A stretch of DNA of 64,000 bases from Amoebophrya sp. A120. Lineage: Eukaryota; Protista; Dinoflagellata. Every line of letters starts with the position of its first letter. The stretch's first letter is position 1. The DNA lies in assembly GCA_905178155.1 (NCBI GenBank), contig CAJINV010000001.1, positions 14,818,142 to 14,882,141 on the forward strand, written 5' to 3'. Below the pieces are notes generated by a model, which was given only the letters and a program-made list of their open reading frames with translations, was not told the origin of the DNA and ran no database searches. Below, in pieces: positions 942-33,940 of this stretch. A program made the translations under genes and the position numbers.

Positions 942-977
942 AACAAGCCTCGACTTCTCAACAAGCCTCGACTTCTC
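942..977. repeat. 18-bp tandem duplication (aacaagcctcgacttctc x2)
   Basis: Two exact adjacent copies followed by a degenerate partial copy. Intergenic. Confidence 0.85.
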
Positions 978-1360
978 AACGACTCCCTCTTTTGCCAATT
1001 CACCATTCATGAAAATACTGGTCTTGCCAGCCTCTGGAGAGCAGGAAGGCCACAACAAACCGCGAGCATACTCACAAGACTTGCTCTTGCTTCGACGTAA
1101 TTATGCGCAACGGCTTCAATTTCGTGTCGCTCTAATCTCATCATTTGATTTCATTGATGGGACAAGGGCTCTGTTCTAGTTTTCCTACCGCAGACTTCTA
1201 CATCCAGCAGATCCAACCGGACAAAAATGCATCAAATACAGCTTTATCATCTGACTCCCCGCCCCCCTCCTCAGGCCGAGGAAAGAAGATAAAGTTGCAA
1301 CATCCGTTAACTGTTAGTTTGACCATCTCCGTCATTTGAATAAAGTAGTGTGACAAATTA

Positions 1361-12222: not shown

Positions 12223-14937
12223 CTACATTTGTGCGTCAACCGGCGCGGCGCCGGAAACTACTCGCATGTCGTCCATAGCCAACACGCAGGGATTGAAGTT
12301 CTTCAGTATTTGCCGCCAGGTTTCCGTCACGGATCGGGTCTGTTTCTTGCAGGTGGTGTTCAGCGACGTGCACGAGGAGCTACTCCGCGCACCAGTTGTG
12401 ATCGCACCGACCTGTGTCGCTCCGTTAATATCTTCCGCATCTTCTTCCACGAAGACGAAGAGGCTTGCGCCCTGTGGCACCTTACTTTTTGAGAGCAGAA
12501 TTCCCACGCAGGTCTGCAGATCCGTTTTGTTGCGCGCCTCCGGCTGCAGGGGCGTCCCGCCGCCGATCTGGTGGATTGGCAGAAAGAGCGGCCCGCTGTT
12601 GGCGTCTCCCCCGTCCAGGGCCGCCAGCTGATCCGTGAACTTCCGCCCGACCGAGAGAAAGGGCACGAACAGCCGCTCCGGACTGTTCACCGCCTGTTTC
12701 TGCGCCCAACTGGTGGCGTACATGCTCAGCCACGCGAACCGCAGCGGCTCCCAGGTGAAAAACTCCACGTCCAGTTGCGGCAGGCACTTCGCGAGCGCGG
12801 CGCTGACAATCTCCAGGCGCTCTTCGAGTCGCAGCGGCTTCTCCACGCGGATCAACACCACGCGGCGGTGCAGGTTCTCCAACGATTCGAACGCGAACTG
12901 GTCGAGGTGCAGCTGGGCGCCGAAGCGCGCGATGGCTTCGGGCCGGAGGTTGTCGGTCGGACGGCCCTCCATGCGGTGGTCTGCGACTGTCCACTTGTAC
13001 TCGGCGGTTGGTAGGAAAATGTCCAGGTCGAGATGCGCGTCCTGATGTTCTTGTTCATCGGAAACAACATCCACAGTGCGCAATTCCTCATCCAGCAACA
13101 AGGAACCGCCGCGGTCGCTACCCGGAGTGGAGGTCGAGGCCGAGGAAAGATGCTCGTGGGCGTTATCTTCTGTGACTGTGCCCGAGAACGTCTTTGCTAC
13201 TCCTGTGGTCGTTGAGGGTACTAACAGATGATTCGGCGCTTCTTTCTCTGTTGCGATGAAATCGCACAGCTCTGCACCGTTGTGCGCTCCTTCGGTGCAC
13301 TCTTCTTTCCGCCAAGTAGATTTCTCGCAGCTAGTACTGGTAGCCCGCTGTTCCAAGAGCGGAGTGGTGTTCTTCCGCAGTTGACCAGCGAGGACCATCG
13401 GGTAGGCAAGCGGCGCATTTTCATGTTTGTTTCCGCCAATGGCAGCAGAAGGGCCAGAAGTAGCGTTTTGATGTGCTACTAGCTCGTCGGGACTACAAAG
13501 AGCAGCTGTGTTTCTGCTTCCGCGCAACGTTGCCGGAAACGCAAGGCGATAATTTCGCCAACAGCGTACAAACGCGACGCCGCAGAAAGCGGCTAGGACG
13601 GTGAGGGCCAAAACACACTTCATCGAAAACAAGAAAGTGAGCAGCGTGTTCCCGCTTGTACTATCACCGCCAGCGTCATCACCCCCGTCATCGTCATCAT
13701 ATGTGATGGACGCGGATCTCCACTGGACAAACTGCACAATCATCGCAATGACGAGAGAACATAACAGGGAGACGAAGGAAAAGGAAATGAATGTGAAGTT
13801 GTCCAGTGCCGCCAGTTCCTCCGGATTGAGTAGCGCGGAAAGTTTCGCCTTTCCGGCACCACCATTTCCGCCCGTGGAGTACTTGCTGTGCTTCGTGCCG
13901 ACGGGAACGACGACGCCGGCGCGCGAAAACCGGTCTCCGATCACATCGATCACCGCCCGGAAGCTGCGGAAAATGAGCACATTTCCGCCCTTCCGGATTT
14001 CCACCGTGTGCCACTGGAAGCCCAGAAAATGCAGCACGCTGCACCAGCGCAGCGTGAAATACAGCATGCCGGTGGGATTCGGCGTTTGCTGCGTGTGGCG
14101 CGTCTCCTCCTCGCACGGGGCGCGCAACACGTTCTGCTTGCGTAGCAGTCGCACGAGCGCCATGTTCGCCGTGCGCTCGTCGCCGTGGTCCGCCATCCGG
14201 TATCAAATGTAAAAATGTCTGGGTCTGGAAACTTGTGATGCTGGGTGGCGTCTCATGAAGAGGCCAGAAGTGCTGGCTCAGCATGACAAATTTCTGAGCT
14301 TGTAGGTGTTGCCTATTCTGCATGACAAATTGCGTCTCCGCATGACAGAAAAATGCGTTTCTTGGGCAACGTACATGACAGATTTAATAGTCATGCCAGG
14401 CAAGCATGACAAACATGCATTCTTCCAGACCCAGACATTTTTACATTTGATATCCGGTTCTGCTGAACGATTCCCACGAGCGACTCTATCAAATGCAAAA
14501 ATGTCTGGGTCTGGAAGAGTTGGAACTTGTGATGCAAACTCTGGAATCCGCAGAAACTTGTCTTGCATGAGCGCCAAAAGCTGTCCATTTCTTGGTCCGC
14601 AAGTAGGAAGTTTCTCATGCGGGACAGGCATCATAAGGCGTGCTGAAAACCTGTGATGCTTTTGCCTGCATCAGACGCCATATGCGTGATCCGAAACATG
14701 CATGACAAATCTCGTAATCTTCCAGACCCAGACACTTTTACATTTGATAGACTCCAGGAAGTAGCGATTGTTCGACGCGCTCGCACTCACGTTAGAGGAA
14801 ACGTCTTGCAGGAGGCCGTAACAGAGACTCGACATCAGAAAAAAGTACATGTAGGAGTCGCCGTACCCATAGTGGTAACCCAGTGCGGCCCCCGCAAACA
14901 GTACGGCTGGAACACCCCCGCCGGCGACGAGCACCAT
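12223..14937 (-). CDS. Multi-pass membrane hypothetical protein interrupted by two introner elements (5' end uncertain)
   Basis: Removing 14487-14749 and 14201-14452 (each plus one TSD) gives continuous ...NNRYFLE-SLVGIVQQNR-MADHGDER.... Several hydrophobic segments. Confidence 0.6.
14201..14452. mobile_element. TIR introner/MITE family A, copy A1 (252 bp)
   Basis: ~30-bp TIR tatcaaatgtaaaaatgtctgggtctggaa / ttccagacccagacatttttacatttgata. TSD tccgg at 14196-14200 and 14453-14457. Confidence 0.95.
14487..14749. mobile_element. TIR introner/MITE family A, copy A2 (263 bp)
   Basis: Same TIR as A1. TSD gactc at 14482-14486 and 14750-14754. Confidence 0.95.
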
Positions 14938-15673
14938 TGTTGCAAATTGAGATCGGTCGATTGTCTGAAGGTCTTGTGATCGATGTGTTGAGTAGAGTCT
15001 AGCGGTTGTACATCTCTGGTGGCTTTTTAAAAAGGATTCTCGTCCTATCGCAATATGAGCTCCATCGACCTCTTCCGCCGGGAGACACACGTGCGAGGAC
15101 AGCGGCTCGTTAAAAAAATGTCCCCTGAAAATCACTGAGTCAGACTTCTTGCACGGGCATTTGATTACCCAGTAAATAATTCGACATAGAAGCAGAAGTG
15201 ATTAGTGTCACCAAACGGAAAACATGGACTTTTTTATCACCGTGGGCTCTCGTCAACCAAAACCACACCATTCTTTCCTAGACGAGTGAACAGAAAAAGT
15301 GACACTTTTCATCTATCTGTGCAGACCAAGAACACGCTTTTGCCTCCGCGAGACCAAATTTTATGCGACAACTGCTTGCACGTGAATGATGTTCGCCTTG
15401 TAGATAGCTGTCTTGTTTCATATTACGTGCGCTTCACAGAGCATCAAACATGTCGTAGTACTCGCGGTTCTGCGAGAACCGGGGCGGGCCTCGGCAACCT
15501 GCGGGATACGCAAGAAGATGTCGCACGCAGGCTTTGAAAAAGACCACATGTCCATGATTCTAAAAAGTCGTAAGGGGTGAATGATGACGCAAAGAAGTCA
15601 CTTCCTTGATAGATGTCGTCAACCGGATCAAGCAATTCAACAAAATCACTTTAATCCGCTGTTGTCCAGCACT

Positions 15674-18552
15674 TCAGTCGAAGATTTTCTTCGACAGCAG
15701 TGCCAAACTGTCGATGCAGTCGGACTCATGCTTGATGGTTTCCAGGATGTGCTTGCAGGTTGGTCGCAGTTTTCGTTCCGGGAAGAGTATCAAGTTGCCC
15801 TGGCCCTCGTCTAACGTGCCGGCGAGCTTCTGGTCCAAGATGAGCTGCGAGAGCTTCATCGTGGTTTTGTCGACTCCGAGCTCGATCAGCTCCGCCACGC
15901 GGGACAACTCCACCGCAGAAAAGGGCTCGAGGATCTTCAGCAAGTTCTTCTCGAGAAAAGTGTCGTACAAATCCCGCAAGTGGTACTGGATCACTGGGTC
16001 CTCTACCGGGTGATCCGCGAGGACCTACAATGTTCTTTAGTAATATTAGCTCTCGTCTTCATGATGCACAAGCCACGACATTTTGTAGGTAAATATCTAT
16101 TTTTGATGAAGGCGGTGTCAGCGTTCCTGAAAACGGAAAAACTCAAAATGCTGTGTGCTAGGAAATACAACCCGAGTAACAAGTGAGTCAATACCTTCTC
16201 AAGCTTCTTCAGTGATCTGTCCTCATACGCGGCAGCAATTTTCAAAATTGCTTGCACGGAGTCGTGTCCCTGATAGTTTAGCATGTTCTTTTGCTGCGCG
16301 ATGGTTTTCACGCCCGCAGGCTCGTCCTGCATGATGCGGCACAAAAGTTGGCACCGTAAGGCAGACAGCGCTCTCACGTAGCAGTAGTCCTTGCTGGTAT
16401 GCGTGCTCTCGTCTTTGTTAGCATGAAAGGCCTCGAAAGCCTCGTAAAGGTAGGAAAAGGCGGTCCGTGGGTCCTTTTCCCGCATGCTCACAATGCCTGT
16501 TTTGTGTGGAAAAAAGAGTGGTACACGTACAAGGGAAATCATAAATATCTTCTGTGTTTTTGTTATGAAGTGCCGTCGACCATATTATGCAAGCATGTTG
16601 TAGTAAATGCGTCGACCAAAGATCCTGATACACCTCATACACATATTTCTGTGATGTGTCTATACCGCTCCACAGATCGATTTCTGCTTGAAGCAGTGGT
16701 GGGCAGTGGATGGCATTCGCGTTGGTTTTTGCTGCCGTGAGGGATGCTCGGGCTTTTGGTAGGTTGTCGCAGTTGAAGTTCGCCCGCGTCTCGATGAGGT
16801 GGATTTCGACAAGAAGCATTTTGTCGTCCAGCTGTTTGACCTCCTTCAGTACGAGCTGCAGCAGCTGCAGTGCGCTCTCGTACTTTTTCATATCCACGTA
16901 AATGCTGCATAGCCTCGTTTCCACTCGGTGCTTCAAAAACGTTCGCTGTTCCGCTTTGGCCCAATTTATGCAATCCAGACACAGGTCGGCAATAAGCTGG
17001 TTCAGTTTTCGATTGAGAAAGTAAGTATTGCATTGCGGACGCGTTTCATGACTCTTAGGCTTAGATAGTGACGTTGCAGACCTAAATAGGAGAGGCACGA
17101 AAACATAAGACTTTGAGAACGCTACAAAAAGTATACCTGAGTTGGTTTGTCTCCTTGAATTCGTGAGACGAGATCGATGAGCGTCCTGACTATTTTCGCG
17201 GTTTTCACTTTCGGAAAGTGAATGAAAAGCGGCCGGATCTCCTTGCAAAGTGCCACGAGGTTTTTTACCTGCATGAAACAAATCAATGGAAGACGTGAAG
17301 AAGTCGAAGCGTACCAAAGGTGATGAAAAAATTATAGTCAGAATTCATCAAATCGCACGAAATAGAAACTCATGAGTCCTTTACCTGCTCCTTTTTTGCG
17401 TAGAAGTTCGCGAGCCTGTAGATCGAGAGTATAACCCGCTCAGGTATTAAATTCAGCACGAGTTTGAAAAAAAAGCAACTGCTTTCCTTTTTCGTCTTTG
17501 AAACCGAAAAAAACAACCATCGCCAATTTTGATCAAATTGGAAAGTTGATCCGCGTGCTATGCTGGTCCTCGGAGCTCTCGGACCTGTGAAAAAACCTAA
17601 AATATAACAAAAAAAGCGCACTTTTGGAGATTTTGAAAAGCTAACCACGACGGTGCGGGGTCTCTTTTTCCTTTCGGACCTGTGAAAAAACTACTTTTCC
17701 GGATCCGGCAGAAACGGGCCGGGTTTTTGGGTCCATTCTTGGACCCTTCCCACGGCGGTATGAGGTCGATTGATTTCAGATGTTAACGCCCCCCCTGGAG
17801 GGGGGGTGCTTCCTCATCCAGGTTTTCTTGCAGAAAAAGCTTGCTCTTCTCTTGTATAAAGTGTTGCCTTTCCAAAGATCGAAACCGCGCCGGCACCTTC
17901 GCCATACCACCGGCGGACTTACCGTTTAGGGACACATCAACAAGAGAACTGGAAGACCTTCGGACCAGCTAGCTTAAGAGCTGGGCTTTGAAGTAGCGAC
18001 TTTAAATGGCGACGATTTGAGAAATAGCGGCTCGCTTTTTTTCAAAATATCGCTGAATTTAATTCCTGAGCGGGTTATAGAGAGCTCCAGGTCTTTCACT
18101 TCCTGCTCTGATTCCGGGAGCGGACTGTCAAAAATCAGCTTTCGGTAGGTATCAGAAGGAAAAATCCCCCCTCCCCATATCGAAAACGAAATTTGTGTTG
18201 CTGTATTTGAGTACACAAATCAGGTTTGTATTGCAGAGAAGCACTGCGGCCAGATGCTCAGCTAGATAGGGGCCTATGGGTCTAGTTGTTTAGCATGGCA
18301 AACGGCTCCCCTTTAGGCCCAACAGCATGACAAATCGCTTCCATAGTGGGGCGCAAGCTTCTGCCCTTGTCTCCTTGCAAGACAAATGTGATTTGTGACC
18401 TCAAATCAGCAACACAAATTTTCGGAAACATGCCTTTTCGATATGGGGAGGGGGGATTTTTCCTTTTGATAGTAGGCTTTGATTGCCTTCTCGCCATCCC
18501 CCACGCTCTCCAAGGCGGTGGCCTCATCCAGCGCTGTTTGGTCTACCTCCAT
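15674..18552 (-). CDS. RPN6: 26S proteasome regulatory (lid) subunit RPN6/PSMD11, multi-exon
   Basis: Reconstructed exons include EKAIKAYRKL, LELSIYRLA, KVKTAKIVRTLID, EQRTFLKHRVETRL, KQLDDKMLLVEIHLIE, KARASLTAAKTNANAIHCPPLLQAEID, TAFSYLYEAFE and the PCI domain NLLKILEPFS..LSQLILDQKLAGTLDEG. Four GT-AG introns plus two TIR introners. Confidence 0.95.
17430..18079. mobile_element. TIR introner family C (650 bp) inside RPN6 CDS
   Basis: TIR tataacccgctcagg(t/a)attaaattcagc at both ends, extending imperfectly ~60 bp. TSD gagag at 17425-17429 and 18080-18084. Confidence 0.93.
18150..18471. mobile_element. TIR introner family D (322 bp) inside RPN6 CDS
   Basis: ~37-bp TIR tatca(g/a)aaggaaaaatcccccctccccatatcgaaaa. 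TSD gtagg at 18145-18149 and 18472-18476. Confidence 0.93.
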
Positions 18553-19430
18553 CTTGATGTCTTTTTTGAAGATGTCGCCTTCCTTTGCTAATGCGTAAGT
18601 AAATCAAGTTTCACTTCGTCAATGAACTACTTAGCTTACATCCCGTTAAAACGTTTTGAGTTTTGAAAAATACTGTCTAAGAACGTAGTACTAGTACGGT
18701 CGCTGGGTAATAACTGAAATGTTGAGCTTCGATATTCAGAGTCGTGGGATCTTTGGATCTTCTAGTTCATTCTTCATCGTACTCGTTGTAGCCGGTGCTG
18801 GAGCTACAACACAATACCAATAGTCTTGTAGCGGTAGCACGGAGTGTGAACAAAAAGCAGATTTTTCGCGCGCCTGCGAGGATTGGTTCAGCCACCAGAT
18901 GAGGACGTAGTTGTCCGGTGAAGATGACATGTGTGTATCGCACGTGTGCTGGCTGGTCTCGGTAATTGGGTGATAGTTGCTATTTTTTGGAGGGTTTAGA
19001 CAAAAACATCTTTGTTGGGCTACTACTGGCAGAAGCAACATCGGGAAAGATACTGCAACTGCAATGATAATTTACTTTGAATGCGAATCAACTTTGAAAT
19101 TCGTGCCGTAAGAATATGCAACGATCACTGATGAAGCTTCTTTGTATGTGCAAAACAAAAAGGGGAATGATAGTGTCCATGAAAAAGATAAAAACAAGCC
19201 GTACTAGGAAATGGAAATTACAACGATCTTAAATTCTTTAGAAGACGACGTGCGTGGTGTCATACACAAGACCTAATTTTTTTAAGAAATTGTAATTGAG
19301 CTAGAAAGCGTACTTCGGCCACAAATGCAGGTCGAGGCGAGACTACCTGCACCGAGGATCAACAGCTAGTTTCTTCAGGAGCGGTTCTTCGAGCGTGGCT
19401 TTTCTCAAGTTTGGAGGAGTATCAAAAAAA

Positions 19431-22400
19431 TCAAGCGGTAGCAAGGATGAATTCCTCCTCCGAAGTTCCGGAGCTTGTGAACAGCGTGGATTCCGCGGGA
19501 GAAGTGGCGCTCGAGGGATTCGCACTCCCCTCATCGTGCTGCCAGTACAGACCCTTTTTGTGGTTTTCCTGCGCGTAGGTCGCCGCGGCGGCGCAATACT
19601 TCAGCATCTTCATGTCCTTGCACTGCTTCAACTCGCCGCGCAACATCAAGTACTCACACTGCGCCTCGTTGAAGGGTGTTTCCTTCAGCGCAACGTACAA
19701 CAGCCGCGGTTCGAAGAGCACAGGGAGCGGCTTGTGCAGTGCGTCGTAGGGCTCCGACTCGTTTTCGCTCATCGCCTTCTGCAGCAGACACAGCAACCGC
19801 ACTCGGGGGTCCTTCTTATGGAGTTCTCAAATGTTACATTCTCAACTGTATACATAAATTTGTAATGCAAGACTGGTAAAAGTGAAAGGAGGAAGATTGC
19901 GCCTCTTGCATTACAAGTTTGGCGCAGATTTCGACGCTGTCTAGCCCTTCCGAAATTTGTCATGCGAAGCAGCTCGATCATCTGCCGGATTAAGGTGTTT
20001 TTGCATGACAAATTCATGTAACAGTTGAGAATGTAACGTTTGAGAACGCCATACTTCTCCTGGAGCAGTTCCGAGTCCGTGGACCGCGCGGCCGCGTGCT
20101 TGATGTAGGAACTGTTGTGTTCCTCCGCAAAAAACACCCGCTGCAGATCCAGCGAAAAGCAGGACGTGACGTAGGTGAGCGTCAACCCGAGCCCGACGAG
20201 GCAGAAGGCAAACGCCACACCGAAGATGCCGGAAAATCCCGCCGCAGCGCTCTGCCTTTCGTCTCGCTCTTTTTGGTTCTCCATGTCATAGGCCGCGTTG
20301 TGCAGATCAATGCCGGCCGCGCGGGTCCTCCGGGTTCTTTTTGTTTTCGTCTCGTGTTGGTGCTCCAGTTGGGTTTGCTGCAGTGTGGTTTTCATCTTCG
20401 TCGTAGTCACTTTCGACACTTTCTTCTTCACCCTCTTCTCGCGCACCGCGAGGAACTTGGTTTTCTTCACCGTGTCGTAGTCGTATTCCTCGTCGTCCAC
20501 CTCCTCAAATTCGCTGTTGCTGTCAACTTGGCCCTGGTCGCGAGGATTTTCCTTGCGGTGATAGTTCTCCACCTCGTCCACCTCCCCGTGATTTTCTTGT
20601 TCGGAAGAAGATGTTGCGAGGCCAGTTCGGACCTCCGTTCTCGGAACTGTAGCTCCCGCCACAGTGGAGGTTGTCTGCTCTTCGAGAAAGGAGGCATGCC
20701 CGTGGGCAAGAACATCTCCAACATGATTCGCAGCTTCTTCTTCTCGTCGTCGTCCCGTAGGGGAAGAAGATGAGATCAAGGTTCTGATTTCCGCTTTTTC
20801 GGGAGTAGTAGATTCGGATGACAGGCTGTTTCCGCCGGTACTTCCGTAGATCTTGTCAGCGAAATTTCCGAAGCGCTTCGCCAGTCCGGAGTTGGAGGTG
20901 GAAGAAGTTGTACTAGAGGGCAGCCGCAACATTTTGTGCACAGTTCCGGTTAAAAAGTACAGCCCGCGAGTTAAGGTGAGAAAAGAGGAACTGCTGTGGT
21001 TCGGGTCGTCCTCGTCGTCGTCGTGGTGGTGTCCCGCTTCGCCCGTCATGTGGTCCTCCAGCTCGGCGTCGCAGTCGGCGCATTGGAAACAGCAGGAAAT
21101 GAAGAGGCCGAAAACGCACACCCCGCACAACACCGCAAACACCCACGTGACGATCTCCGCGGTCTCCTTGCCGACGACCCGTTCCTCGGGCATCCGCGCG
21201 TGTAAGGTGAGAAATTGCGAGGTGTCGAACAGGAAGTCGCTGTCGTGGGACAGCGTCATCTTCGTGATCGGGGTCTGCTCGTTGCTGGACACGTCGCGCC
21301 AGTTGGTGTACAAAGTCAAGTTGCAGTGCTCCAACCCGTGGTCGCACCACAAATCGCACGTCAGTTCCGGCTATCAACTGTAAAAGTGTCTGGGTCTGGA
21401 AGAATCCAACTTGTCATGCTGATTTTGGATTCTAAAAAAATCTGGATTGCATGAGCAGCAAAGAGAGACCAAGTTTTGCTACACGGAAAGAGCATTTGTC
21501 ATGCGGTATAGGCATCAGGAAGCCCTCACAAAAACTGTGATGCTAGGGCATGCATCACAGACATCAGGAGTCATGCAAAATGTGCATGACAAACCTGGCA
21601 ATTTTCCAGACCCAGACATTTTTACATTTGATACCGGCTGCACGACGGCGTTGGAGCCGTTGTAGTCGTTCACCTCGTTGTACATCTCCGGGCACGGCAT
21701 CAGCTGCTCGGGCTGCTTTTTCAGCTGGAAAATCTTCGATTCCCCGATCAGAAGCACGGACTTCTCGTCCGGCAGCTTCGTCTCCGCCGGCCGCGGGTGG
21801 GCATCGATTTTGTGCAGGCTGGAGCCCATGTAGACCATGTCGTCGCTGCGGAGCTGCTTGATCTCCTCGATACTGGACAAAAGCATCATGTTGTTCTGTT
21901 CCGCGGTGGTCAACCGGACGAGGTTCTGGTACTTGAACTTCAGCACGCGCGGCACGAAAAACCACTTCTTCGACTCCACGTGGAAGAACATTTGCATGGC
22001 GTCGTTTTGCCGCAAAATCTTCTGGATCCCCTGCGCGGTCTGCTGCTCCCAGTCCTCCTCCTCGCCCCCGGTCGTGCTCTGCGTCATCAGCTCGTAATCG
22101 GACCGCTTTCCCTTCGATAGGCTCGTACCCTTCATTTTCCCGGTCCCTTTAGGCCCACCTCCGGGAGGTCCAGAACCACCGCCCGGGCTTCCGCCTCGGT
22201 TTGGTGCAGATTGCTGCATCCGAAAGGACCCACCTCCCCCGACCTCTGAGTCCACTCCTCCGCCGCGAGAGCGATCCCGCACGGGCCGTTGCCGCTGCCT
22301 GCGGGAGCCCGCCCCGTTAGGGGCCGACGAACCGCCCGTGTCCACCATGGACCCCAAACCCATCGGTCCCTGCGAGCGCATGCTGGTCGGGTTTTGACTG

Positions 22401-22729
22401 TGGATCTGACTCAGCGTGCGCGCGAGCGAACTGCTGGAGGTTTCCAGCGCGGACGGCTTCTTTAGCAGCAGATCCTGGGTACTGCCACCAACTCCGCCGC
22501 CGGTTTGTCTACCGCTAGCCTGTCTGGAGTTGCTACGGCCCATCATTTGGTGGTGGCGTTCCGCCCGGGCGGCGCGTCGCTCGTCGCGCTTATTCGCTGC
22601 GATTGCGCCCGACGGGAGACCCACCTCCTCCTCATCCCGGAACCCCGAGGGCAGGCCCACCTCGGAGGTAAAACCCGCCTCCCCGTCGCCGAAGTGCGAC
22701 GGCGGACCCTGCGAAGCCAATGTTGACAT
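19431..22729 (-). CDS. Hypothetical membrane protein interrupted by two introners
   Basis: Removing 21372-21633 and 19817-20053 fuses ORFs 21515-22729, 19769-21352 and 19431-19802 in frame (...AVVQP-ELTCDLWCDH...; ...LLQEK-DPRVRLLCLLQK...). Two TM-like segments. Confidence 0.7.
19817..20053. mobile_element. TIR introner family B (237 bp)
   Basis: ~50-bp imperfect TIR tatgg(a/c)gttctcaaa(t/c)gttacattctcaactgt. TSD cttct at 19812-19816 and 20054-20058. Confidence 0.93.
21372..21633. mobile_element. TIR introner/MITE family A, copy A3 (262 bp)
   Basis: Family A TIR. TSD ccggc at 21367-21371 and 21634-21638. Confidence 0.95.
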
Positions 22730-24016: not shown

Positions 24017-27000
24017 CTAGTACGTGTCCAGCTTGGCCTGCACTTTGCGATGCACCATGCAAAGGAAATCGACGTAGGACAGTTCCTGCCGCAGTGCGTC
24101 CTCCACCAGCAGCATGCGCGTATCCTCGTTCGTGTACTGCATTCGCATCCAGCGGTAGCTCAAGCCTTTATCCTTCCGTATCTGCTGCAAGACCGCAAAG
24201 ATCCGGGCGCCGAGTGGCTTTTCCAGGTTTAAACCTCGCACGTGCGCAATGTCATCCACACCAAACGAGTCCTGCAGCAGCTCCGGTGTGGCGTCCGGGC
24301 CAACGTAAATAACGATCTTGTCGCCGTTTTCGTACAGGTAGAGGCCTTGGAGGGACACGCGGTCCATGGAGCACTGAATGTTGCTCGGCATGTGCACGTT
24401 TTCCGCGTCCGCAGGGAGCCCGTGCTTCTCTTGCAGGCGGTGCAAGGGGATGCTGTTTTATTGTGTCGGAAGCAAAAGAAGTTTATGTTCATCATAATAT
24501 CATTCTGAACCAAACAAGGAAGGGAAAACATGCACAGAAACATGCATTGCAAATCATCCGCGCAAGCAGCAAACATACAGCCTCGGGTAGAGCAGCGCGT
24601 TCGAGCGCATGACACAGGAGTTGAGCAGCTGGACGATTTCGGCATACCGGTGGTCTACGCGGCAATTGAGGTTCCGCCGCCGGAAGCACATCTGCTTGAA
24701 CATAGAGCTCAGGTACATCGGCAGCAGTTTGAGGCTCTCTGGTAGGATCAACTGCCCGTAGCTGCTTGTGGAAGCGCAATTTACCCGGTACGCGTGTAGA
24801 ATGTTTACGAGTTGGTCCACCTGTTTTATATGTCATTCAATCATGGCAAGATGAACCAAGCTACGAGCATTCTAAAAATTGCAAATAAGTGTAAGGGCAC
24901 CGACCGGAGTGAACAAATAACATCAAATCAGCTTAAGTATTTACGATCTGCGCCTTTGGTTGCGGGCTGTTTGGTTGCTGGAGTTCCTTTTGCAGGGTCT
25001 CTTTCAGCAGCACATTGGTCAACGCGTCCACGTATCAAATGCAAAAGTGTCTGGGTCTGGAAGATTGCAACTTGTCATGCTGTTTTTCGACTCTAAAAAA
25101 ATTTGTATTGCATGACCAGCAAGAGGGGCGCAATTTGTGCTACACGGACAGGGCATTTCTCATGCGGAAGGTGCATCAGGAAGCGCTCTAAAAGTCTGCG
25201 ATGCTACACCATGCATTACAGGCATCATGATCATGGGTCATGAGAAATATGCATGATAAATCTTGCATTCTTCCGGACCCAGACACTTTTGCATTTGATA
25301 CCACGCAGGTGTAGCGGAATGTGGACGACAGTGCGTTGGTCGCCGCTAGGGCGAGCGTGTGTACGCGAATACACTTCACCCCACTCAAATTTGTGTACAG
25401 ACACGCCACTTGCACGTAGGCATGCTTGGCGGATTCAACCAGGTCCTCGTGCTTCAGCACGAAGCAAATCGTGGAATCGGAACTCAGGCGGGAGACCTAA
25501 AAAAGAGGCAGACAACACGATAGATTATGGACGTATTCGTGGTTCCAAATGAAGTGCTTTATCGTCCTTGCTCTTGGCGAATTGATTTCAACATTCAAAT
25601 CAGGACAGATGAGGGCACGCAGCGTCAATACATAATTTTGTCCTCACGGTCACGACACCAAATCTTCACAAGAACTCCAGTAAGTACCTCAAACTGACTG
25701 CACTCGTGCCTCGAGACCGGATCGAACGCAGCGTACATTTTATTTACAGTTAACCCTCTGCTCGTCCGGATCTTCAAGCTGCACCCGAAGGCCTGCCGTC
25801 TCAAAATGTGGCGCGACACATCGTAATGCAGCTGCTCGCCGTGCTCCGGAAGATTGAAATTGGGATAGAAGAACGTATCGCCACCCGATTTGGCAGGGAG
25901 CTGGTGGAGTTTTTTGCATCGATAATTTCAAATACTGACCGGAGAATGTCATTCATGTTCGCCTGCATGATACCAGGTCAAACTTCAAGGTCAAGTATCT
26001 ATTGTGTAGCGAAAGAACAGCAATACAAAGCTCTGCGTGGCAACGTCGATGTATTGGTTTTCGGCGGGAAGGAGAAAGCAATCCACGCACACATCCATAT
26101 CCAGACACTTCTCCAGCAGGTCTTTGTGAAAGGTAGGGTTTTGCGGAAGGAACCTGGTATGGGTAAAGGGTTCAACAAGTTTGAAGCACCGTTTTTTCGC
26201 GGAATCGGGGCTAGATTTTTCCTGCCGATCATGAAAAGCGAAATAAGGGAAAGCAAATTTATACAGCTCGCCAATTTTGTCTTTCCATTCGTCATCTTGG
26301 GAGTACACCCGCACATCATCCCGATTCACCTGCAACCCCACGCCTCTAGTCGGCAACGATCGCATGAACAGCATGATTTGCCCCGTCCCGCCGCGGGCTT
26401 TGAATAGAGACACGGCACTCGTAAGCGCCGCTCCGCTACAGGAGGTGAAGTCCGTCGATTCGCGGTACAAGCCTGGGATCAAGTCCAGAAGTAGCTCCAG
26501 AGAAGATCCGCCCTCCTGTAATGGGATCAATTTTTTCATATTTGTACCGCTCGAAGGAGGTCATAACACTCGTCAGCAATCAAAGGCCCCCTCGTAAAGC
26601 AGCCGCAGGCGCAGCAGCAGTAGCTTTTGTTTGCTTAAACAAAACGAAAACCAGCAAAACTTCCATACCCTCGGGTCCACGAAGAGCGTGTCCGGGCTGG
26701 CCGGTGCAAAGTCTGGCTCATCCACGTCCGTCTGCAAAATCACTGCTGGTTCACCGCTGGTGGTGCCGAAGTGGTAGCAGTGTATGCTGCTGTCGAACGT
26801 CATGATGGCGACGCGCGAGGAATCGCCGGGAAAATGCGGAATCATCGAGCGGATGGTTTGCAGCACCTGGTGCACGTACCCCGTGTCCATGGCGGCCCGG
26901 GTGACCTCCAGCACGAAAAGGTAGTAGGGAACTTGCGGGGTGACGTCCTTCATGCTGTAATACCTGTATGGGTTGAAGAGGAAGTAGAAAAAGTGATTCT

Positions 27001-30000
27001 TTCCCTTTGATGGGGATGGCCAGGACCAAATGAATCATCACGAGCCGCAACGAAGGGTCAATGAATGAAATTTCCACGACGCTTTGTACTCTATGGGCGC
27101 CACGTAATCCACCGTGCCTGTGCAGAGCTCTGCTCGCTCGTTCCGGTCCCTCCGGTTTCCGGCGAAATCTAAGCTGCAGACAAACGGCTTCGGCACCTCG
27201 AAGTAATGCCCGCAGAAGTTGCAGTTTGCCTCCTTTCCCTGTGCCGCCCAGTTGTAGAAGGCGTTCACGTAGGCTTTGCATCGCGGGCACCGCAGCGGTC
27301 CCTCGTCCCCATTGTCGAGAAGCGGGATAGGGGCCTCTTGCTCCGCCAACGCAGCAAACGGCTGGACCACGGCGGCAATCGGGACGTGCGTGCAGTCAGC
27401 GGTTTGGTGGTAGGTCGGGATCTGGTTGCAGGTCATGCGGATGAACCGCGCACTGCAACTGCCTTTGTCGACGAACACGCAGCGAGAGGAAATCGTTATG
27501 TTTGGCGGCGTTACGTATCTGGAAATAGTTTAAAGTTAAACTTTTTCCACGCCATGCATCAGCATCTTAATCTTTCTTCGATAATCTGCGAATGGCAAAG
27601 ATTCTAGGCGCAGGAGGGGGACTGCACGGTGAAGACTTCACTTGCAACATCGCCAACAAAATGAAATTATCAAGAAAAAGGTAAAACAGTAAGTGAGTAC
27701 TTGTCCGTCGCGAATGTTTTGGACTGCTTCCCGCTGCTGGTCAGCACCCCGACGTTTGTCGGCCGCGGTATCTGCAACGGGTCTATTTTCGACGTATTCA
27801 TCTGTTTCTGCCGGGTCTGTGCGCCGGCTTTGTACATGGGATTCGCGCCCATGCCCAAACCGGTGGCGCCCGGTGGCAATTTCGTTGGCGATTTCGACGG
27901 ACTGTTCGAGCTGCTTGCGCTTGCGCCGCCCTGCTGAAAGTTCGGATTGTTCGCATTGTTGTAGACCGAGTTTTGCGATACTGGCTGCTGACTATAGGGA
28001 TCTGCAGCTGGTGCCCCGCTATATGGCGGCGCGTTGGTCTGCGGGTATGTACTGTAGGGATCAGAATGGCTCGCAGGGGGCGGTGGAGGTGCGGTCGAGC
28101 CGGTCGCCCCGCCGTATGGTGGAACAGCTCCGTACTGCTGACCGCCGGGCGGGGGCGGGGGCGGCGGAAGCGAAGGGTCGCTATATCCAGTAGCACTACC
28201 GCCGGGTAGCGGCGGCGGCTCGCTGCTCCCCGCCCGCATCAGAGAGGGCTGACTCGAGGCGGAAGACGGAAAACTTTGCGCCGATGGACCGGCCCCTATA
28301 GGCAGCGGCGCGGGCTCGAAGTCCGTGATCGGCTCGAATACGGGGTAGGCACAGGCCGCGTTCGGAATCACCGTCGGCATCTGCACGGACCCAGACATGT
28401 CGCCCGTGTCCTCAGATTCGTCATAGGACTGCGATTCTTGCTGTGAACTAGAGCTCGTGGGCTCGCTGTGGCTGGTGTCCTTGCTCTGGCGCGTGCTGTT
28501 CCGCCGGCTACCAGAAGTTCCGGAATTCTGCTGCCGATCGTCGGTCGTCTGTGACTGTGATAATTTAGGTTTAGAAACTTGTTGTTCCGTGGAAAAGATT
28601 GATACCGATAGCATAAGCTTTGTGAACAACTACCTTGGCATTGACCAATAAAGCGACCAGACCTCCTGAAGTAAGAGAAAAAGCTAAAACACCTGCGGCT
28701 GCTGCTGCTGCGCTGCCTTGTTTGCGCGTTCGCGCATTTTACGCCGGTAAGCTTCCTCCGCCGTCTCTTCTCGCCCCTCCTCTTGTTTTTGCTGCGCTTG
28801 CTGATTTTGCGAACCAGCGTTGCCCATCATGTGTTCGCGATATGCATTTTCGTAGTCGCGTGTAGAGTATTCCTCTGGCGGCCCTCGCCCCGGGTTATTT
28901 GAGTTTGCGGTTGATGACGTGCCGCCACCTCCTCTTTGATTATCGTTGTTCCTGGCGGGCCGATTCAGTGGCGGTGAGGGCGTGGTTCCCTGCACAAAAG
29001 CTTCCACCGTCTGGAGCGGTGATGCAGATTTACTGGTGGAGTCAGCGGCCGTCGTCTGCGTGAAGGACTGCTGCGAAGGGTAGGCGTTGCTTCTGTAGGC
29101 TTGCTCTGGATAGGAGGAGCTCGAACCCGCCTGCCGACCAGCTGCCACAGGCGATTGCGGTTGCGTCGGGGCCTGCAGCTGTTGCGAACTGTAGGGCGGC
29201 GCAGCGGCAGGAGCTACGGACATCGTTGTCCCGTTTGATGTCCCGTAACCAGCATCACTGTTGTAGCCATTTGCAGCCACACCGTAGGGTCCAGATGGTG
29301 TTGGCACCGGATACGAAGAGGAGGTAGAAGACGAAGGGGGGTAAAGACTTTGTGAAGAAGAAGAAGCGGGAGGTGGTGCCCCGGCTTGCTGGTGTGGATA
29401 GTCCGGCTGTGGGTTGTCATATTGCTGCTGCTGATACTGCCCTCCACTGTAAGCTCCGTGGCTGCTAGGGTCCACCTGCGGCTGGTTTTGGCTAGAAGAC
29501 GGCAACGTGTACCCAGACGGCGTGGCGGGAACCGATGCTGGGTGCTGCTGTTGCAGTTGCTGAGAACTAAGCGTCTGCTGGGGCTGCACTGGCGCAGCAA
29601 AACCTGTTCTACTGCCGTTGGCTTGGCTGTGCACAGGTGTGCCGGAACCGCTCGATGGTTTGGACCTCGTCGGTGCAGTTGGTTTATCCCACAATCCACC
29701 CATTGCTGCACTGCCAGGAGGCTCGCTGGGCTGCTGTTGGGCGGGAGGTTGTAGTCCTGTGGAAGCTGTGTTCGCACCAGCAGATGCCGTGCCTCCCGAC
29801 CAAGCGCTGGCCGCTGTTGTGGCTTGCTGTGTAGCTGCACTGCCAGAGGTAGACATGACCGGCGTGCCCGGGTAGGAGGACTGGTGTGGAAAAGTGCCAA
29901 CCGAAGTCGCGGCGGTGGTGGTCGTGCTATCGGATTTCAAATAGGGGCTGCTGTTAGGCACCAGAGCTCCACCGCTGGCAGCAGTTGCTAATCCCGCTAC

Positions 30001-30666
30001 ACCAGGGGAAGGATTGTATGGGAGACCTCCGGTACTTTGTGGTGGTGCAAAAGCCTGGTATGCTGTATTTCCGGGCGGGGGTACGGGTTGCGATTGTGTT
30101 TGTGGCATGGTCCTGGCAGGCGGCATGTACTGCTGCGCCTGGTTGTAGCTCGTCGGCGTCGCGCGACTGGAAGTCGGACTGCTAGTGCCGGTAAGCACGC
30201 CGCTCGGGTGCTGCTGGCTGCCTGCGGGACTAGGTTGCGGGTACGCGCCGCCGGGGTAATGGGGCTGGTTGTACATGTTCATACCCGGTGCAGTTCTGTT
30301 CTGGGGCGAAGCCTGCTGCGTCGGGGCGAATGGCTGCTGCTGGTTGTAATTCTGTGCTGGGGCTGCACTTGGATTTGGGTAGGCATTGCTACTTGCATTT
30401 CCATTAGTGTAGTTGTACTGGTTGTAGTAATCGCCAGGGGGATTACTCGTAGACCACTGCTCTCCAGGCTGCATTCCCCCGTCGTAGTGCACCGCACTAG
30501 ACGACACACTGTTTCCGTTAATACCCGTCATGGGAGGTGGTGCAGGTTGTGCAATTGCATACGGAGCTGTTGCGGTTTTTTGCGTAGTAGTTGTACCTGG
30601 CTGGTGGTCGAACATAGAAGGCAATCCATCCCCTCGCTGGTGCAACGGAGACATACTGGTTTTCAT
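24017..30666 (-). CDS. SEC24: COPII coat cargo adaptor Sec24 (Sec24C/D-like), multi-exon; attachment of the Pro/Gln-rich ORF 28684-30666 is uncertain
   Basis: SKIDPLQIPRP, zinc finger PLRCPRCKAYVN..CNFC, RAELCTGTVDYVAP, trunk domain, SGGDTFFYPNF, QVACLYTNLSGVKCIRVHTL, QLILPESLKLLPMY, gelsolin YLYENG and C-terminal SYVDFLCMVHRKVQ. About 9 GT-AG introns plus one TIR introner. Confidence 0.93.
25033..25300. mobile_element. TIR introner/MITE family A, copy A4 (268 bp) inside Sec24 CDS
   Basis: Family A TIR. TSD ccacg at 25028-25032 and 25301-25305. Removal gives FRYTCV-DALTNVLLKE. Confidence 0.95.
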
Positions 30667-31561
30667 CAGCTGCGGCTCGAGCGCTCCTAAGTCACGCGCG
30701 AGTTAGTACCGCGGACATTATCTGGAGCTGCTGTGAGGACTACCGAGACACACATCGCTCGGAAACGTATCGCGTTTCAATATACTTAGCGATTTCGTTT
30801 TCAAAAAGTCGTTGGTGGCTACTGTGATTTTTCGGTGAGGTGCCGGTTCTTTTAGTCGAATAGCGATAGCTTCTACTGTACTCATTCGTCGTGGTTGTTC
30901 TACTACGCTGCGTGCTGACGAGAGTGGACAACCCAGTCACTCAGCTGCTTATTCGGTGAGACAAGATGATGCTTTCGCAACTACACCGTACGCAGGAACC
31001 AAAAACGCAAAGAGGAGTTGACGCGGAACTCAATATTTTTCAAAAATTCGTGCGTTGTGGTTGATTGCATGGCAAGCGTACTAAAGGGATCGACGCAAAT
31101 TGAACAACAAAACTAAAGCCCGCTTCTGTGACCGACGCAACGCCGTCGGTTCTCAATTGAGAATCGACTGCTAAAAAGGTAGGATGGTGATTTTTTTGAT
31201 TTTGTTATTCTCCTGCATAAATTCTTGTCCAATTGAAGATTCTCACTAACGTAAAAGATATCAACCCGGGAATTTGACAAGGTTCTAATGGCAGTCGTCT
31301 ACCGATTAATGGTGTCATTTTTTCTCTAAATTGGTTCGTACTACTTTTATCTATGTACAGCTACTAGTCACTCAAATGCACTCGAACGTTCACTATCTAT
31401 CATTATGTTTGATGTCTTTGTTATCTTGATCTTCTAGCATCTTGTTGTTATGGTTAACATCACATAAAGCATCAAAGTCGTATTCAAACACATCTTGCAT
31501 AATTGGGAAAAAAGATATATTGGCATAAGCGCTTCCAACAGAAAAGACGAGCTGACAGCGT

Positions 31562-33940
31562 TTAATCGTCTTCCTTTTTCGGATTCGCCCGCATGGCCTC
31601 GCGCAGCTCCTCGACAATGTGCGAGTTGAGCGTCGACTCTGCGTGATCTAACGGGTTCTGACCGTTTTCGTCCTGTTTGTAGAGATCGGCCTTTCTCGCG
31701 ACGAGAAGTCGCACGCACTCGTACTGCTGAAACATCGCCGCCCATGCCAATGGCGTTTGCCCGCGCTGCGTGATGGACCTGAGTTTTTTTTTTTTTAAGC
31801 CAAATTTTTATCCATTTTGTCCACCCAGTGTTGAAGAGATCATCTGTATCTGATCTCAGTACTTCATCTTGATCGAATTTCTATCGGGATCATGTGGGGA
31901 AAAACCTAAAGTAGAAGGTAGAACTATACTCCACTGGTGCCCCGTGATCCAACAGGGTTTCGACCAATTCTCGGTGGCCACACCTCACCGCTGCGAACAA
32001 CGCGTTTTGCCCCTCCTTGTTCTTTTCCAGGACGTTGGCGCCCTTTTTCAGCATCACCTTTGCCGCTTCCAACTTACCGAACATGCACGCGAAGAACAAG
32101 GCGTTTTCCCCGTTCTTCGTCGTGACATCGATCTTCGCGTCGTGGGAGAGTAACCCCTCGATGGTGTCGACGTGCCCCTGCGCGCACGCCCACATCAGGG
32201 CTGTTTGGTAGCTGTTTGAATGTAGTGATCTTGTAGAAGGAATTATTTTGGATTTTGTTGAGAATAGCGAAGCAACATCATGATCGCCATCCTTAGGCGA
32301 AATAAGCTCTGATCGCTTGCACGAGAAATCTGCTCTAAAAATGTCAAACAAACTAATACTGGATGTCGTGGTGATTCACTTTCGCACCCTCCTCTAGCAG
32401 AAATTTGCAGACTTCCCAATGCCCGTTGCAGGCAGCCTTCATCAATGGCGTCTCGGATTTGTCGGTTGCGTACCTATTTTTCATGCAAGTGACAATCTTG
32501 ATCTGTGAAGAAGCATCCAAATAACGCAAAGCGATGATACCAAATTTCAACTCCACCACAAAAACCTATTGAAATCGAAGCCACAGGCCATACACAAACT
32601 AAACACATCTATATCAAAAGTAAAAATGTCTGGGTCTGGAAACTTGTGATGCTGGGTTGCGTCTCATGATGAGGCTACAAATGCTGGCTCAGCGTGACAA
32701 GTTTCTGAGCTCCTAGGTGTTGCCTATTCTGCATGACAAACTGCGCTTCTGCAGCACAGAAAAACGGAGATCTTGGGTAACGTGCATGACAGATTTAAGA
32801 GTCATGCCAGACAAGCATGACAAACATGAATTCTTCCAGACCCAGACATTTTTGCACTTGATAATCTATACTCGGCTGCCATGTTCCACTCCTGGATCAG
32901 CAGCTCCACTACTTCGAGCTGCCCGGCGAGGCAGCCCCACATGAGGCACGTCCACCCCTCGTCATCCTGTACGTCCAAAGTGGCGCCCTGCTGCAGCAGA
33001 TAGTCTACGATTTCCATCTCCCCTTGCTCTGCAGCCTTCATCAGCCCAGTTATACCTGATGTCATGTATTAGTCGTGGCAAGTTGTATCGTGGGGCACTA
33101 GAAACAACCGAGATTTGGCCTTTCTTCTGCACTTCAAGCAGCGCAGGAACGACTTCCAAAAGACGACAGTGCTGGTAAAGACTACTTTACTTCCTTCTCG
33201 TACCTTCATCGTCCTTTGCGTCTAGTAATCTCCGCCTCTCTGCTTGGTCGAGCGTCCTAGCCATTTTTGAGCCCTGTCTTTCCGTAGAGCTTTGTCTTGC
33301 TTTGGAGCCCGCGTTACTGCTTGGAAGGAAATCTGGTTGGTGCAATGTGCCGTTTCCTTTGGGCCGTGCACAATTCTCTGTGTGGGAGTTCGCATTCGAT
33401 ATAAACGAACGCTAAACGAAACTCTTCCATGCAATTACAGCGGTACCTGCGACTTTTTTCTTCTGTGTGGCCATGATGTAGTCGACGAAATATTGGACGA
33501 TATGTATCTGCCCCTCCTTGCATGCTTTCATGAGTGCCGTCTCCCCTATGTCATCCTTTGCGTTCACTCTTGCACCCTTCGCAAGCAGGTACTTCACTAT
33601 GTCGAGGTAGCTGTTTTATGTAGGGAAGGAAAGCACTTTTTTTGCCGCAATATTAAGAGCAAGTGGTGCCTGTCGTCCTTCATTTCAGTAAGTATGCGAA
33701 TAAAGCCAAAAGACCAGAAGCAACGTAAGCAAAATGCACACACTACCCTTGCGACGATGAGTGCATCAACGCGGTTTGTCCGTCGGGGTCGCGCTGGTCT
33801 GGCTTGGCTTTGGGCTCCTCCAGCCATCTTTCCACGCCCTCGATCAATCCGTTCTTGGCTGCGTCAATGAGGGGAGAAACAGTACTCAAGCTGTTTTTTG
33901 CTTGGTTGGACCGCAACGCGGCCAACAAATTCGACGTCAT
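31562..33940 (-). CDS. Ankyrin-repeat protein, 7 exons
   Basis: Repeated motifs GQTALMH, GETALMKAC, GITGLMKAA, GWTCLMWGC, ETPLMKAACNGH, QTALMWAC, GENALFFAC, GQNALFAAV and GQTPLAWAA, joined by GT-AG introns. Confidence 0.9.
32612..32863. mobile_element. TIR MITE family A, copy A5 (252 bp), nested in a canonical intron (32474-32871)
   Basis: Family A TIR. TSD atcta at 32607-32611 and 32864-32868. Colinear with A1 along its whole length. Confidence 0.95.

What the first reader, a model, noticed from the sequence alone, without database searches (positions are those of the whole stretch)
14196..32868. Multi-family system of TAT...ATA TIR elements with 5-bp TSDs acting as non-canonical introns in coding exons
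Seen in sequence: 8 elements (14201, 14487, 17430, 18150, 19817, 21372, 25033, 32612; 237-650 bp) from 4 families with largely different TIRs. All share TAT/ATA termini and an exact 5-bp TSD (tccgg, gactc, gagag, gtagg, cttct, ccggc, ccacg, atcta). Seven sit in CDS, and in each case removing the element plus one TSD restores the frame and a sensible protein, including RPN6 and Sec24. None gives GT-AG ends in any of the six exact-excision registers. Established: inverted-repeat introners forming non-canonical introns are described in Amoebophrya. Inference: one transposase type mobilises all four families, and the RNA copies are removed by a mechanism that reads the TIR hairpin or termini. Removal at the DNA level is an alternative.
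Basis: partly seen in the sequence, partly recalled or inferred. Interest (0 to 1): 0.92.

Follow-up and report, generated by a model that had tools for sequence, protein, structure and literature searches.

The report
Amoebophrya hairpin transposons acting as introns
Eight small hairpin-ended mobile elements sit in genes of the marine parasite Amoebophrya A120, and all five tested are cleanly absent from transcript-like sequence without using GT-AG splice sites; these are the parasite's already published 'introner' elements, whose removal, likely by a modified spliceosome guided by the hairpin ends, remains unproven.

Summary
In detail: exactly eight TIR elements (237-650 bp), all TAT...ATA with an exact 5-bp duplication, and none with TAT ends in 10 shuffles. 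The window is Amoebophrya sp. A120: removing element plus one duplication gives RPN6 and a neighbouring protein identical to public A120 proteins, ungapped against orthologs. Transcript-like contigs skip exactly element+5 nt at 5 of 5 elements tested, alongside six GT-AG introns. This is the introner system of Farhat et al. 2021 (TAT-starting repeats, 3-5-nt direct repeats, RNA-supported), so it is already known. Refinements from 210 copies in a related assembly: TAT...ATA with a 5-bp duplication is a uniform rule across 19 families; copies sit in either orientation (12:9); GT-AG registers occur at chance rate (2 of 46, 1.6 expected); most families share a subterminal 9-nt motif that the 650-bp element lacks although it is removed. 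No transposase was found. The chemistry of removal is untested, and reverse-transcriptase skipping across the hairpin is not formally excluded. Copies with imperfect duplications offer a direct test of the cut position.

The parts
14196..14457 (-). E1: family A element 14201-14452 (252 bp, 30-nt TIR) with both copies of the 5-bp TSD; in coding exon of gene 1
   Evidence: removal of element+5 gives public protein P0009; not bridged by an RNA contig shown
14482..14754 (-). E2: family A element 14487-14749 (263 bp) with TSDs; a 29-nt micro-exon separates it from E1
   Evidence: ortholog P0010 aligns without gap across both junctions
17425..18084 (-). E3: 650-bp element 17430-18079, own family, 44-nt TIR, no subterminal motif; in RPN6 coding exon
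   Evidence: skip of 655 nt in X3 and X5 contigs; hairpin z -8.2; motif absent
18145..18476 (-). E4: 322-bp element 18150-18471, family C, long hairpin; in RPN6 coding exon
   Evidence: skip of 327 nt in X3, X5, X4; hairpin z -14.4
19812..20058 (-). E5: 237-bp element 19817-20053, family D; in coding exon of a 929-aa gene of unknown family
   Evidence: skip of 242 nt in X3, X4, X6
21367..21638 (-). E6: family A element 21372-21633 (262 bp); same 929-aa gene
   Evidence: skip of 267 nt in X4, X6
25028..25305 (-). E7: family A element 25033-25300 (268 bp); in Sec24 coding exon
   Evidence: skip of 273 nt in X3, X5; hairpin z -8.0
32607..32868 (-). E8: family A element 32612-32863 (252 bp, 89% identical to E1), 8 nt inside a predicted GT-AG intron (32871 to 32566) of an ankyrin-repeat gene
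   Evidence: splicing not tested by RNA
12223..14937 (-). Gene 1, 729 aa, no Pfam family; host of E1 and E2
15389..18714 (-). RPN6 (26S proteasome subunit, PCI domain), 433 aa, 7 exons: 4 GT-AG introns plus E3 and E4
   Evidence: one 1757-nt contig with T8 end; identical to P0001; Pfam PCI
18992..22927 (-). 929-aa gene whose only introns are E5 and E6
24017..30702 (-). Sec24 (zinc finger, beta-sandwich, gelsolin domains); host of E7
   Evidence: Pfam; 3' part spliced

Best explanation
These are the non-autonomous TIR transposons (introner elements) of Amoebophrya sp. A120 that interrupt coding exons and are absent, together with one copy of the 5-bp duplication, from transcript-like contigs; they were likely inserted by an integrase-related DDE transposase and are likely removed from pre-mRNA by a modified, U1-less spliceosome that places its cuts from the hairpin and TAT...ATA ends rather than from GT-AG. 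Shown: anatomy, exact removal at 5 of 5 tested sites, restored proteins, no dinucleotide or orientation requirement in the strand-called set. Inferred: (1) a 5-bp staggered cut by one class of transposase (Ginger-like or IS3EU-like), which would bind fixed TIR positions and the subterminal TTGT[ACG]ATGC motif; (2) the TIR stem would bring the two duplication copies together, so that any cut register inside the duplication restores the original exon; (3) catalysis by the U2/U5/U6 core (my odds about 0.55, against about 0.3 for a non-spliceosomal nuclease/ligase route).
For: Exact anatomy and shuffle control. 5 of 5 elements skipped as element+5 in contigs that also skip 6 GT-AG introns; the 1757-nt RPN6 contig equals the 1749-nt spliced model plus 8 T. 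Retaining E3 or E4, or keeping both TSD copies, truncates RPN6 at 83, 48, 64 or 31 aa. Spliced RPN6 and gene 1 are identical to A120 proteins P0001 and P0009 and ungapped against A25 and other orthologs at the junctions. In a related assembly (JACKZZ01 loci) only TAT of 64 terminal triplets shows a 5-bp repeat peak (211 of 663 TAT pairs; 9 at 3 bp, 7 at 4 bp, 1 at 6 bp). 46 of 51 elements with same-strand coding flanks are in frame after element+5 removal; a 972-bp copy splits RPB1 and only +5 restores the frame. GT-AG registers: 2 of 46 sense, 1 of 46 antisense, 1.6 expected; orientation 12 same, 9 opposite. Strong RNA hairpins (z -8 to -14). PMC7789003 (sections 12 and 16 read, passages of 10-11): A120 repeats start with TAT, U1 snRNA not detected, the other snRNAs and most spliceosomal proteins present. 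PMC12130899 supplement file 8, row 580: A120 fam38 classed as Ginger, '5-bp TSD, TA/TA termini'.
Against: No transposase found (0 of 131 long ORFs in the loci, 0 of 5 element ORFs), and PMC7789003 reports putative transposases only in A25 and argues against general transposase mobilisation. E3 lacks the shared motif and matched none of 145 loci, so more than one mobiliser is possible. TIR arms mismatch at positions 4, 5, 7, 10 and 15 in 55-94 of 167 family-A pairs and the motif's variable base pairs in only 24 of 80: perfect pairing at the ends is not kept. The RNA evidence is assembled cDNA from 2 samples of 1 study, RNA status guessed by the tool, and may be the data behind the public annotation; a hairpin between direct repeats is also the substrate for reverse-transcriptase skipping (recalled). 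Nothing here tests spliceosome involvement. 5 of 51 strand-called elements were out of frame, and the model was trained on excised sequence (partly circular).
Confidence: 0.72

Rival explanations
1. Same elements, but removed from RNA by a non-spliceosomal route: a structure-specific nuclease cuts at the base of the TIR stem within the duplication and a ligase joins the exons, releasing a circle or hairpin, as suspected for euglenid nonconventional introns.
For: No dinucleotide rule and no orientation rule; strong hairpins; U1 not detected (PMC7789003); euglenid TIR introns leave as circles without lariats (PMC11282704, passage).
Against: GT-AG introns in the same transcripts show a working spliceosome; terminal pairing is imperfect in many copies; Fritillaria is a precedent for MITE-derived non-canonical introns handled by an altered U2 spliceosome (PMC11282704 passage and reference title; the original paper not read).
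Confidence: 0.25
2. The skipped form is made in vitro: reverse transcriptase jumps between the two 5-bp repeats at the base of the hairpin, and the cell keeps the elements in RNA.
For: The geometry is that of template-switch artefacts (recalled); all RNA evidence is cDNA-based.
Against: Retention truncates RPN6 and breaks RPB1 in the related assembly; no contig covers the interior of E3 at 17708-18051 in any of 4 runs, while a contig joins across it; orthologs are ungapped and the frame is conserved.
Confidence: 0.05
3. The elements are excised from DNA in the transcribing nucleus or stage (like ciliate internal eliminated sequences), and RNA is copied from the excised template.
For: Exact excision leaving one repeat copy is what transposase-type DNA elimination gives (general knowledge).
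Against: In the DNA-like run X1, single-copy contigs (depth 22-27) run from the exons into the TIRs on both sides, and the two element-skipping joints listed have depth 0; the other joints were not among the 15 of 569 rows shown, and contigs drop rare forms.
Confidence: 0.04
4. The interrupted genes are dead copies and intact paralogs supply the transcripts.
For: None found.
Against: Contigs match the window exons with no other letters at the 98% threshold, untranslated ends included; P0001 and P0009 are single-member clusters identical to the spliced window genes.
Confidence: 0.02

Closest known systems
Amoebophrya sp. A120 introner elements (Farhat et al. 2021, PMC7789003)
   Same: Same organism; inverted repeats starting with TAT; direct repeats at the borders (their Fig. 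S19 legend shows 5-bp repeats); mean non-canonical intron about 240 nt; RNA-supported; no internal transposase; many families.
   Different: The paper gives 8-20-nt repeats and 3-5-nt direct repeats of varying position; here the TIRs are about 30-44 nt and the duplication is uniformly 5 bp, directly outside TAT...ATA. E3 and E5 lack the 'seven nt then three or more A' part of the published motif. The subterminal 9-nt motif was not seen in the passages read.
A120 introner family 38, classed as Ginger (Gozashti et al. 2025, PMC12130899)
   Same: 5-bp TSD and TA/TA termini (supplement file 8, row 580); TIR DNA element acting as intron.
   Different: About 808 bp with Copia/Gypsy-like ORFs; the window's elements have no such ORF. 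[quoted passage not shown] Most other A120 families there are 'TIR DNA, unknown' with automated TSD calls mostly of 2-6 bp (56 of 58 rows seen).
Ginger2/TDD DNA transposons (PMC2836005)
   Same: TIR elements; TDD-4 and TDD-5 make 5-bp TSDs.
   Different: Termini TGTNR, not TAT; most Ginger2 make 4-bp TSDs at AT-rich targets.
IS3EU/GingerRoot (PMC10045372)
   Same: TA..TA termini.
   Different: TSD usually 6 bp; here 5 bp.
Euglenid nonconventional introns (review PMC11282704)
   Same: TIR hairpin joins the ends; TSD-like repeats; non-GT-AG; likely MITE origin.
   Different: Own end consensus (CAG/CTG near the ends, pyrimidine|purine junctions); excised as circles; unrelated lineage.
Aureococcus/Micromonas-type introners (as summarised in PMC7789003)
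   Same: Non-autonomous transposons that become introns on insertion.
   Different: They keep canonical splice motifs; these do not.

Membership tests
Amoebophrya A120 introner elements | Lies in the A120 genome | tested here: met
   Spliced proteins identical to A120 P0001 (433 aa) and P0009 (729 aa)
Amoebophrya A120 introner elements | Inverted repeats at intron ends forming a hairpin | tested here: met
   3 of 8 folded, z -8.0 to -14.4
Amoebophrya A120 introner elements | 3-5-nt direct repeat at the exon/intron borders | tested here: met
   5 bp in 8 of 8
Amoebophrya A120 introner elements | Repeat starts with TAT | tested here: met
   8 of 8
Amoebophrya A120 introner elements | TAT followed by 7 variable nt and 3 or more A (pooled family logo) | tested here: inconclusive
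   6 of 8 match; E3 and E5 do not. The paper describes a pooled motif, not a rule for each family
Amoebophrya A120 introner elements | Removed from transcripts at non-GT-AG borders | tested here: met
   5 of 5 tested; no sense-strand GT-AG register in 8 of 8
Amoebophrya A120 introner elements | Repeated in the genome | tested here: met
   5 family-A copies in the window; summed DNA-contig depth over bins with families A, C, D about 25,000-200,000 against about 27 (not a copy number). E3 bins only 43-101
Amoebophrya A120 introner elements | No internal transposase | tested here: met
   0 Pfam hits in 5 element ORFs; elements 237-650 bp
Ginger2/TDD | TGTNR termini | tested here: not met
   TAT in 8 of 8; position 2 is A in 305 of 306 family-A ends
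Ginger2/TDD | 4- or 5-bp TSD | tested here: met
   5 bp
Ginger2/TDD | Gypsy-like integrase with H2C2 finger and DDE core | not testable with these tools
   No autonomous element found; no genome held
IS3EU/GingerRoot | TA..TA termini | tested here: met
IS3EU/GingerRoot | 6-bp TSD | tested here: not met
   1 of 663 TAT pairs at 6 bp, 211 at 5 bp
Canonical-site introners (Aureococcus/Micromonas type) | Element and TSD supply GT(GC)-AG sites on the sense strand | tested here: not met
   0 of 8 in the window; 2 of 46 strand-called against 1.6 expected
Euglenid nonconventional introns | Excised as full-length circles without lariat | not testable with these tools
   Only assembled contigs of the matching strain; no back-joints among the 11 joints, which cannot show absence

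The most novel reading that the evidence does not exclude
Amoebophrya A120 and its relatives run a second, sequence-blind RNA-removal system that recognises only the transposon's own symmetric ends (TAT...ATA closing a hairpin between two 5-nt repeats), cuts and joins without GT, AG, U1 or a lariat, and so makes every insertion of one integrase-like transposon class harmless in either orientation, even in RPB1 and RPN6.
Probability: 0.27. Interest if true: 0.9.

Novelty: already known. Interest (0 to 1): 0.36.

Why it matters
The system is published: tens of thousands of such introns are described in A120, so the window adds no new kind of element. The open question is how they are removed. 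This analysis narrows it. The ends and the 5-bp duplication are uniform, the signal works in both orientations and needs no particular dinucleotide, and the shared subterminal motif is dispensable for removal (E3). It also points to a cheap test that existing RNA-seq can answer: copies whose two duplication copies differ by one base reveal where the cut falls. A hairpin-directed, GT-AG-free removal route would be a rare departure from spliceosomal rules and would explain how a genome tolerates mass insertion into essential genes.

Tried and rejected
No whole genome was held and the JACKZZ01 records are not searchable by handle, so there was no genome-wide count, empty-site search or transposase hunt. 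E1, E2 and E8 were not bridged in any RNA row shown. Orientation bias: the window's 5 of 5 same-orientation family-A copies suggested a directional signal; rejected by 12:9 among 21 strand-called copies. A second element class with 4-bp repeats and AAA ends was an artefact of a palindromic TGCA inside the TIR (83 of 87); the smaller 4-bp classes (AAT 31, CAA 24, ACA 21 and others) were not inspected one by one. A 6197-bp candidate autonomous element in L052 was a chance pairing across many short elements. The 972-bp element in L057 has no ORF over about 83 aa wholly inside it. Pfam found no transposase or integrase in 131 of 140 ORFs of 230 aa or more (9 not sent: 2 edge ORFs, 7 from two unrelated viral loci). 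Viral contigs gave no RPN6 relative and two TIR-core matches without element context. Idea that N-TAT mimics the GTAT donor seen in 4 of 6 canonical introns: G is not enriched at TSD position 5 (13 of 46), and one imperfect TSD (L114) fits the A120 ortholog only with the 3' copy at position 4, a single weak point against it. Strand of the other 12 imperfect-TSD copies could not be used without RNA. Three look-ups of earlier scan findings returned nothing. Searches for a published mechanism or for the subterminal motif found none beyond the papers cited; subscription papers (Roy et al. 2023, Henriet et al. 2019) and the figures of PMC7789003 (logos, Figs S19-S25) could not be seen and may already show the motif or the 5-bp rule.
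Full report
Observation. Ten shuffles within 500-nt blocks gave 6 hits in all and none with TAT ends. Repeat finding and clustering confirm four families: A (E1 14201, E2 14487, E6 21372, E7 25033, E8 32612), B (E3 17430), C (E4 18150) and D (E5 19817). All host genes are on the minus strand. No excision register gives GT-AG on that strand in 8 of 8; E1 and E8 have 8 registers and E6 has 7; E4 has a GT-AG register on the non-coding strand, which a mapper could misread as canonical.

Removal from transcripts. The run search listed 8 holders from 2 studies and 3 further RNA runs. Four contig sets guessed to be RNA (X3 and X5 from one sample, X4 and X6 from another; one study) were laid on 15300-25600. 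They gave 11 joints: six GT-AG introns and skips of 655, 327, 242, 267 and 273 nt, which is element plus 5 nt at 5 of 5 elements in the stretch. The tool marks three of these 'between: not known', but the contig arithmetic closes them: the 1757-nt RPN6 contig equals my 1749-nt model plus a T8 end, and record positions 244-480 equal the three small exons (65+45+127 nt). No differing letters were listed. Run X1 behaves as DNA: single-copy contigs of depth 22-27 pass through GT-AG introns and run into the TIRs, and the two element-skipping joints shown have depth 0 there; only 15 of 569 joints were shown, so E3, E4 and E7 were not checked in X1, and X1 may be the window's own source. E1, E2 and E8 were not bridged in the rows shown.

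Proteins and organism. Spliced RPN6 is 433 aa and identical to P0001, named Amoebophrya sp. A120 by its sources; A25 and four other orthologs align without gaps at both element sites. Keeping E3, E4 or both duplication copies stops the protein at 83, 48, 64 or 31 aa. Gene 1 with E1 and E2 removed is identical to A120 protein P0009 (729 aa), and ortholog P0010 is ungapped across both junctions. Pfam supports RPN6 (PCI), Sec24 (three domains) and the ankyrin gene. So all seven exonic elements are supported as introns: five by contigs, two by the public protein and its ortholog. The public proteins may rest on the same RNA data, so they are not independent of it.

A larger sample. The family-A TIR pattern found 146 stretches in metagenome contigs, all from one assembly, JACKZZ01 (143 loci, 567 kb with overlaps). 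It is related to A120 but apparently not the same: one locus matches an A120 protein at 82% and 93% over two exons (one gene only). These loci were chosen by one TIR, so family proportions are biased. Testing all 64 terminal triplets, only TAT shows a 5-bp repeat peak (211 of 663 de-duplicated TAT pairs; 9, 7 and 1 at 3, 4 and 6 bp); the largest 4-bp class is an artefact of a palindrome inside the TIR. The 210 elements under 1100 bp plus the window's 8 fall into 8 TIR clusters and 19 whole-length families. Of these 218, 12 had short flanks, 146 weak coding signal, 9 opposite-strand flanks and 51 same-strand coding flanks; 46 of the 51 are in frame after element+5 removal. That model was trained on excised sequence; a model trained on window genes only gave 22 of 22 among 197 scored. 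A 972-bp family-A copy splits RPB1, and of removals with 0, 3, 4, 5 or 6 extra bases only 5 restores the frame into the following RPB1 sequence.

What the signal is not. Among the 46 strand-called elements a GT-AG register exists in 2 on the sense strand and 1 on the antisense strand, against 1.6 expected from flanking 5-mers; any-GT and any-AG counts (24, 25) are near expectation (21, 22). Family-A copies lie in both orientations, 12 against 9. The removal signal must therefore be symmetric, which leaves the ends, the hairpin and the repeat itself. The three elements folded form long stems closing exactly at TAT/ATA with the repeats unpaired or nearly so (z -14.4, -8.0, -8.2). Against a strict structural reading, family-A arms mismatch at positions 4, 5, 7, 10 and 15 in 55-94 of 167 pairs while positions 1-3 and 16-28 mismatch in 9 or fewer; 8 of 153 pairs with a near-perfect duplication have one non-TAT end (splicing untested).

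A shared subterminal motif. TTGT[ACG]ATGC (or its complement) occurs 18 times in the 2,506 element bases of the window and 4 times in the other 61,494; 205 of 218 elements hold it somewhere. Allowing one mismatch, it lies 28-56 nt from at least one end in 187 of 218 elements and 6 of 8 TIR clusters, against 0.7% per end in background. Its variable base is complementary between the two ends in only 24 of 80 elements. E3 lacks it, appears low-copy and is still removed exactly, so the motif is not needed for removal. I infer a transposase-binding site shared by most families. This supports one mobiliser class for A, C and D and leaves E3 open.

Mechanism. Shown: anatomy, exact removal, restored proteins, independence from orientation and dinucleotides. 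Inferred: insertion by an integrase-related DDE transposase with a 5-bp stagger. TA..TA ends match IS3EU/GingerRoot (6-bp TSD; PMC10045372, passages), a 5-bp TSD matches TDD-type Ginger2 (TGT ends; PMC2836005, passages), and A120 family 38, which has Copia/Gypsy-like ORFs, is listed with '5-bp TSD, TA/TA termini' (PMC12130899, passages and supplement file 8, 56 of 58 A120 rows seen). Neither family's definition is fully met and I found no transposase. For removal I favour a modified U2-type spliceosome without U1, positioned by the hairpin ends (about 0.55), over a nuclease/ligase route like that suspected in euglenids (about 0.3; PMC11282704, passages); RT skipping and DNA excision are minor rivals. 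The true cut position cannot be read where the repeats are perfect, as in all eight window elements.

Comparison with what is known. PMC7789003 (abstract, sections 12 and 16, passages of sections 10, 11, 17, 25 and 32, supplement legends; figures not visible) describes 29,850 repeated non-canonical introns in 1,954 families in A120, with inverted repeats starting TAT, 3-5-nt direct repeats (5 bp in the Fig. S19 example), RNA-seq support, undetected U1 and an unknown splicing route. The finding is a sample of that system. PMC12005148 (passages) confines such introns to part of the genus. What I did not find in print is the uniform 5-bp rule across families, the orientation and dinucleotide tests and the subterminal motif; unseen figures and subscription papers may hold them.

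Verdict. Real, correctly read, already known. Interest 0.36: the discovery is published, the mechanism is open, and this analysis gives a sharper rule and a direct test (imperfect duplications). The bold reading, a second sequence-blind RNA-removal system, has probability about 0.27 and would deserve 0.9.

Noticed in passing
JACKZZ01 loci L001-L143 against window elements: Best full-length identities to the window's family-A copies are 91-97%, while the one ortholog pair checked is 82-93% identical in protein. Recent transfer of elements between Amoebophrya lineages is possible; one gene only, and paralogy is not excluded.
   Followed up: partly
L057 4059-5030 (also L055): A 972-bp family-A element with a long non-coding interior interrupts RPB1; L055 holds 4 elements in 10 kb.
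   Followed up: partly
window 25033-25081 and 14421-14454, run X9: A 2026 RNA run with no exon cover holds over 100 reads of a family-A-like TIR joined to a single foreign flank: a transcribed, unremoved copy in a related organism.
   Followed up: no
window 16023-24944, canonical introns: The six RNA-supported GT-AG introns (116-170 nt) start GTAT (4) or GTAA (2) and end in CAG or TAG after A/C- or T-rich stretches.
   Followed up: partly
window 32566-32871: E8 is nested 8 nt inside a predicted canonical intron of only 49 nt without it; whether removal is stepwise is unknown.
   Followed up: no
window 14453-14481: A 29-nt micro-exon between two hairpin elements of one family, where E1's left arm could also pair with E2's right arm; the public protein keeps the exon.
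   Followed up: partly
window 17780-17810: E3 carries an internal C-run/G-run hairpin and a repeated short motif; it matched none of 145 loci.
   Followed up: no
window 1-14195 and 32869-64000: No element passes the scan in these 45 kb; all eight lie in 18.7 kb. L052 has more than a dozen in 6.5 kb.
   Followed up: no
46 strand-called elements: Insertion phase is uneven (23, 15, 8 for the three codon positions); small sample, cause unknown.
   Followed up: no
window 60242-60300 and 60668-60726; 63422-63710: A 59-nt direct repeat pair (85%) and three 40-nt repeats unrelated to the elements.
   Followed up: no
P0002 and P0010: The orthologs of RPN6 and gene 1 carry consecutive names (g30.t1, g29.t1) in one source, hinting at conserved gene order.
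   Followed up: no
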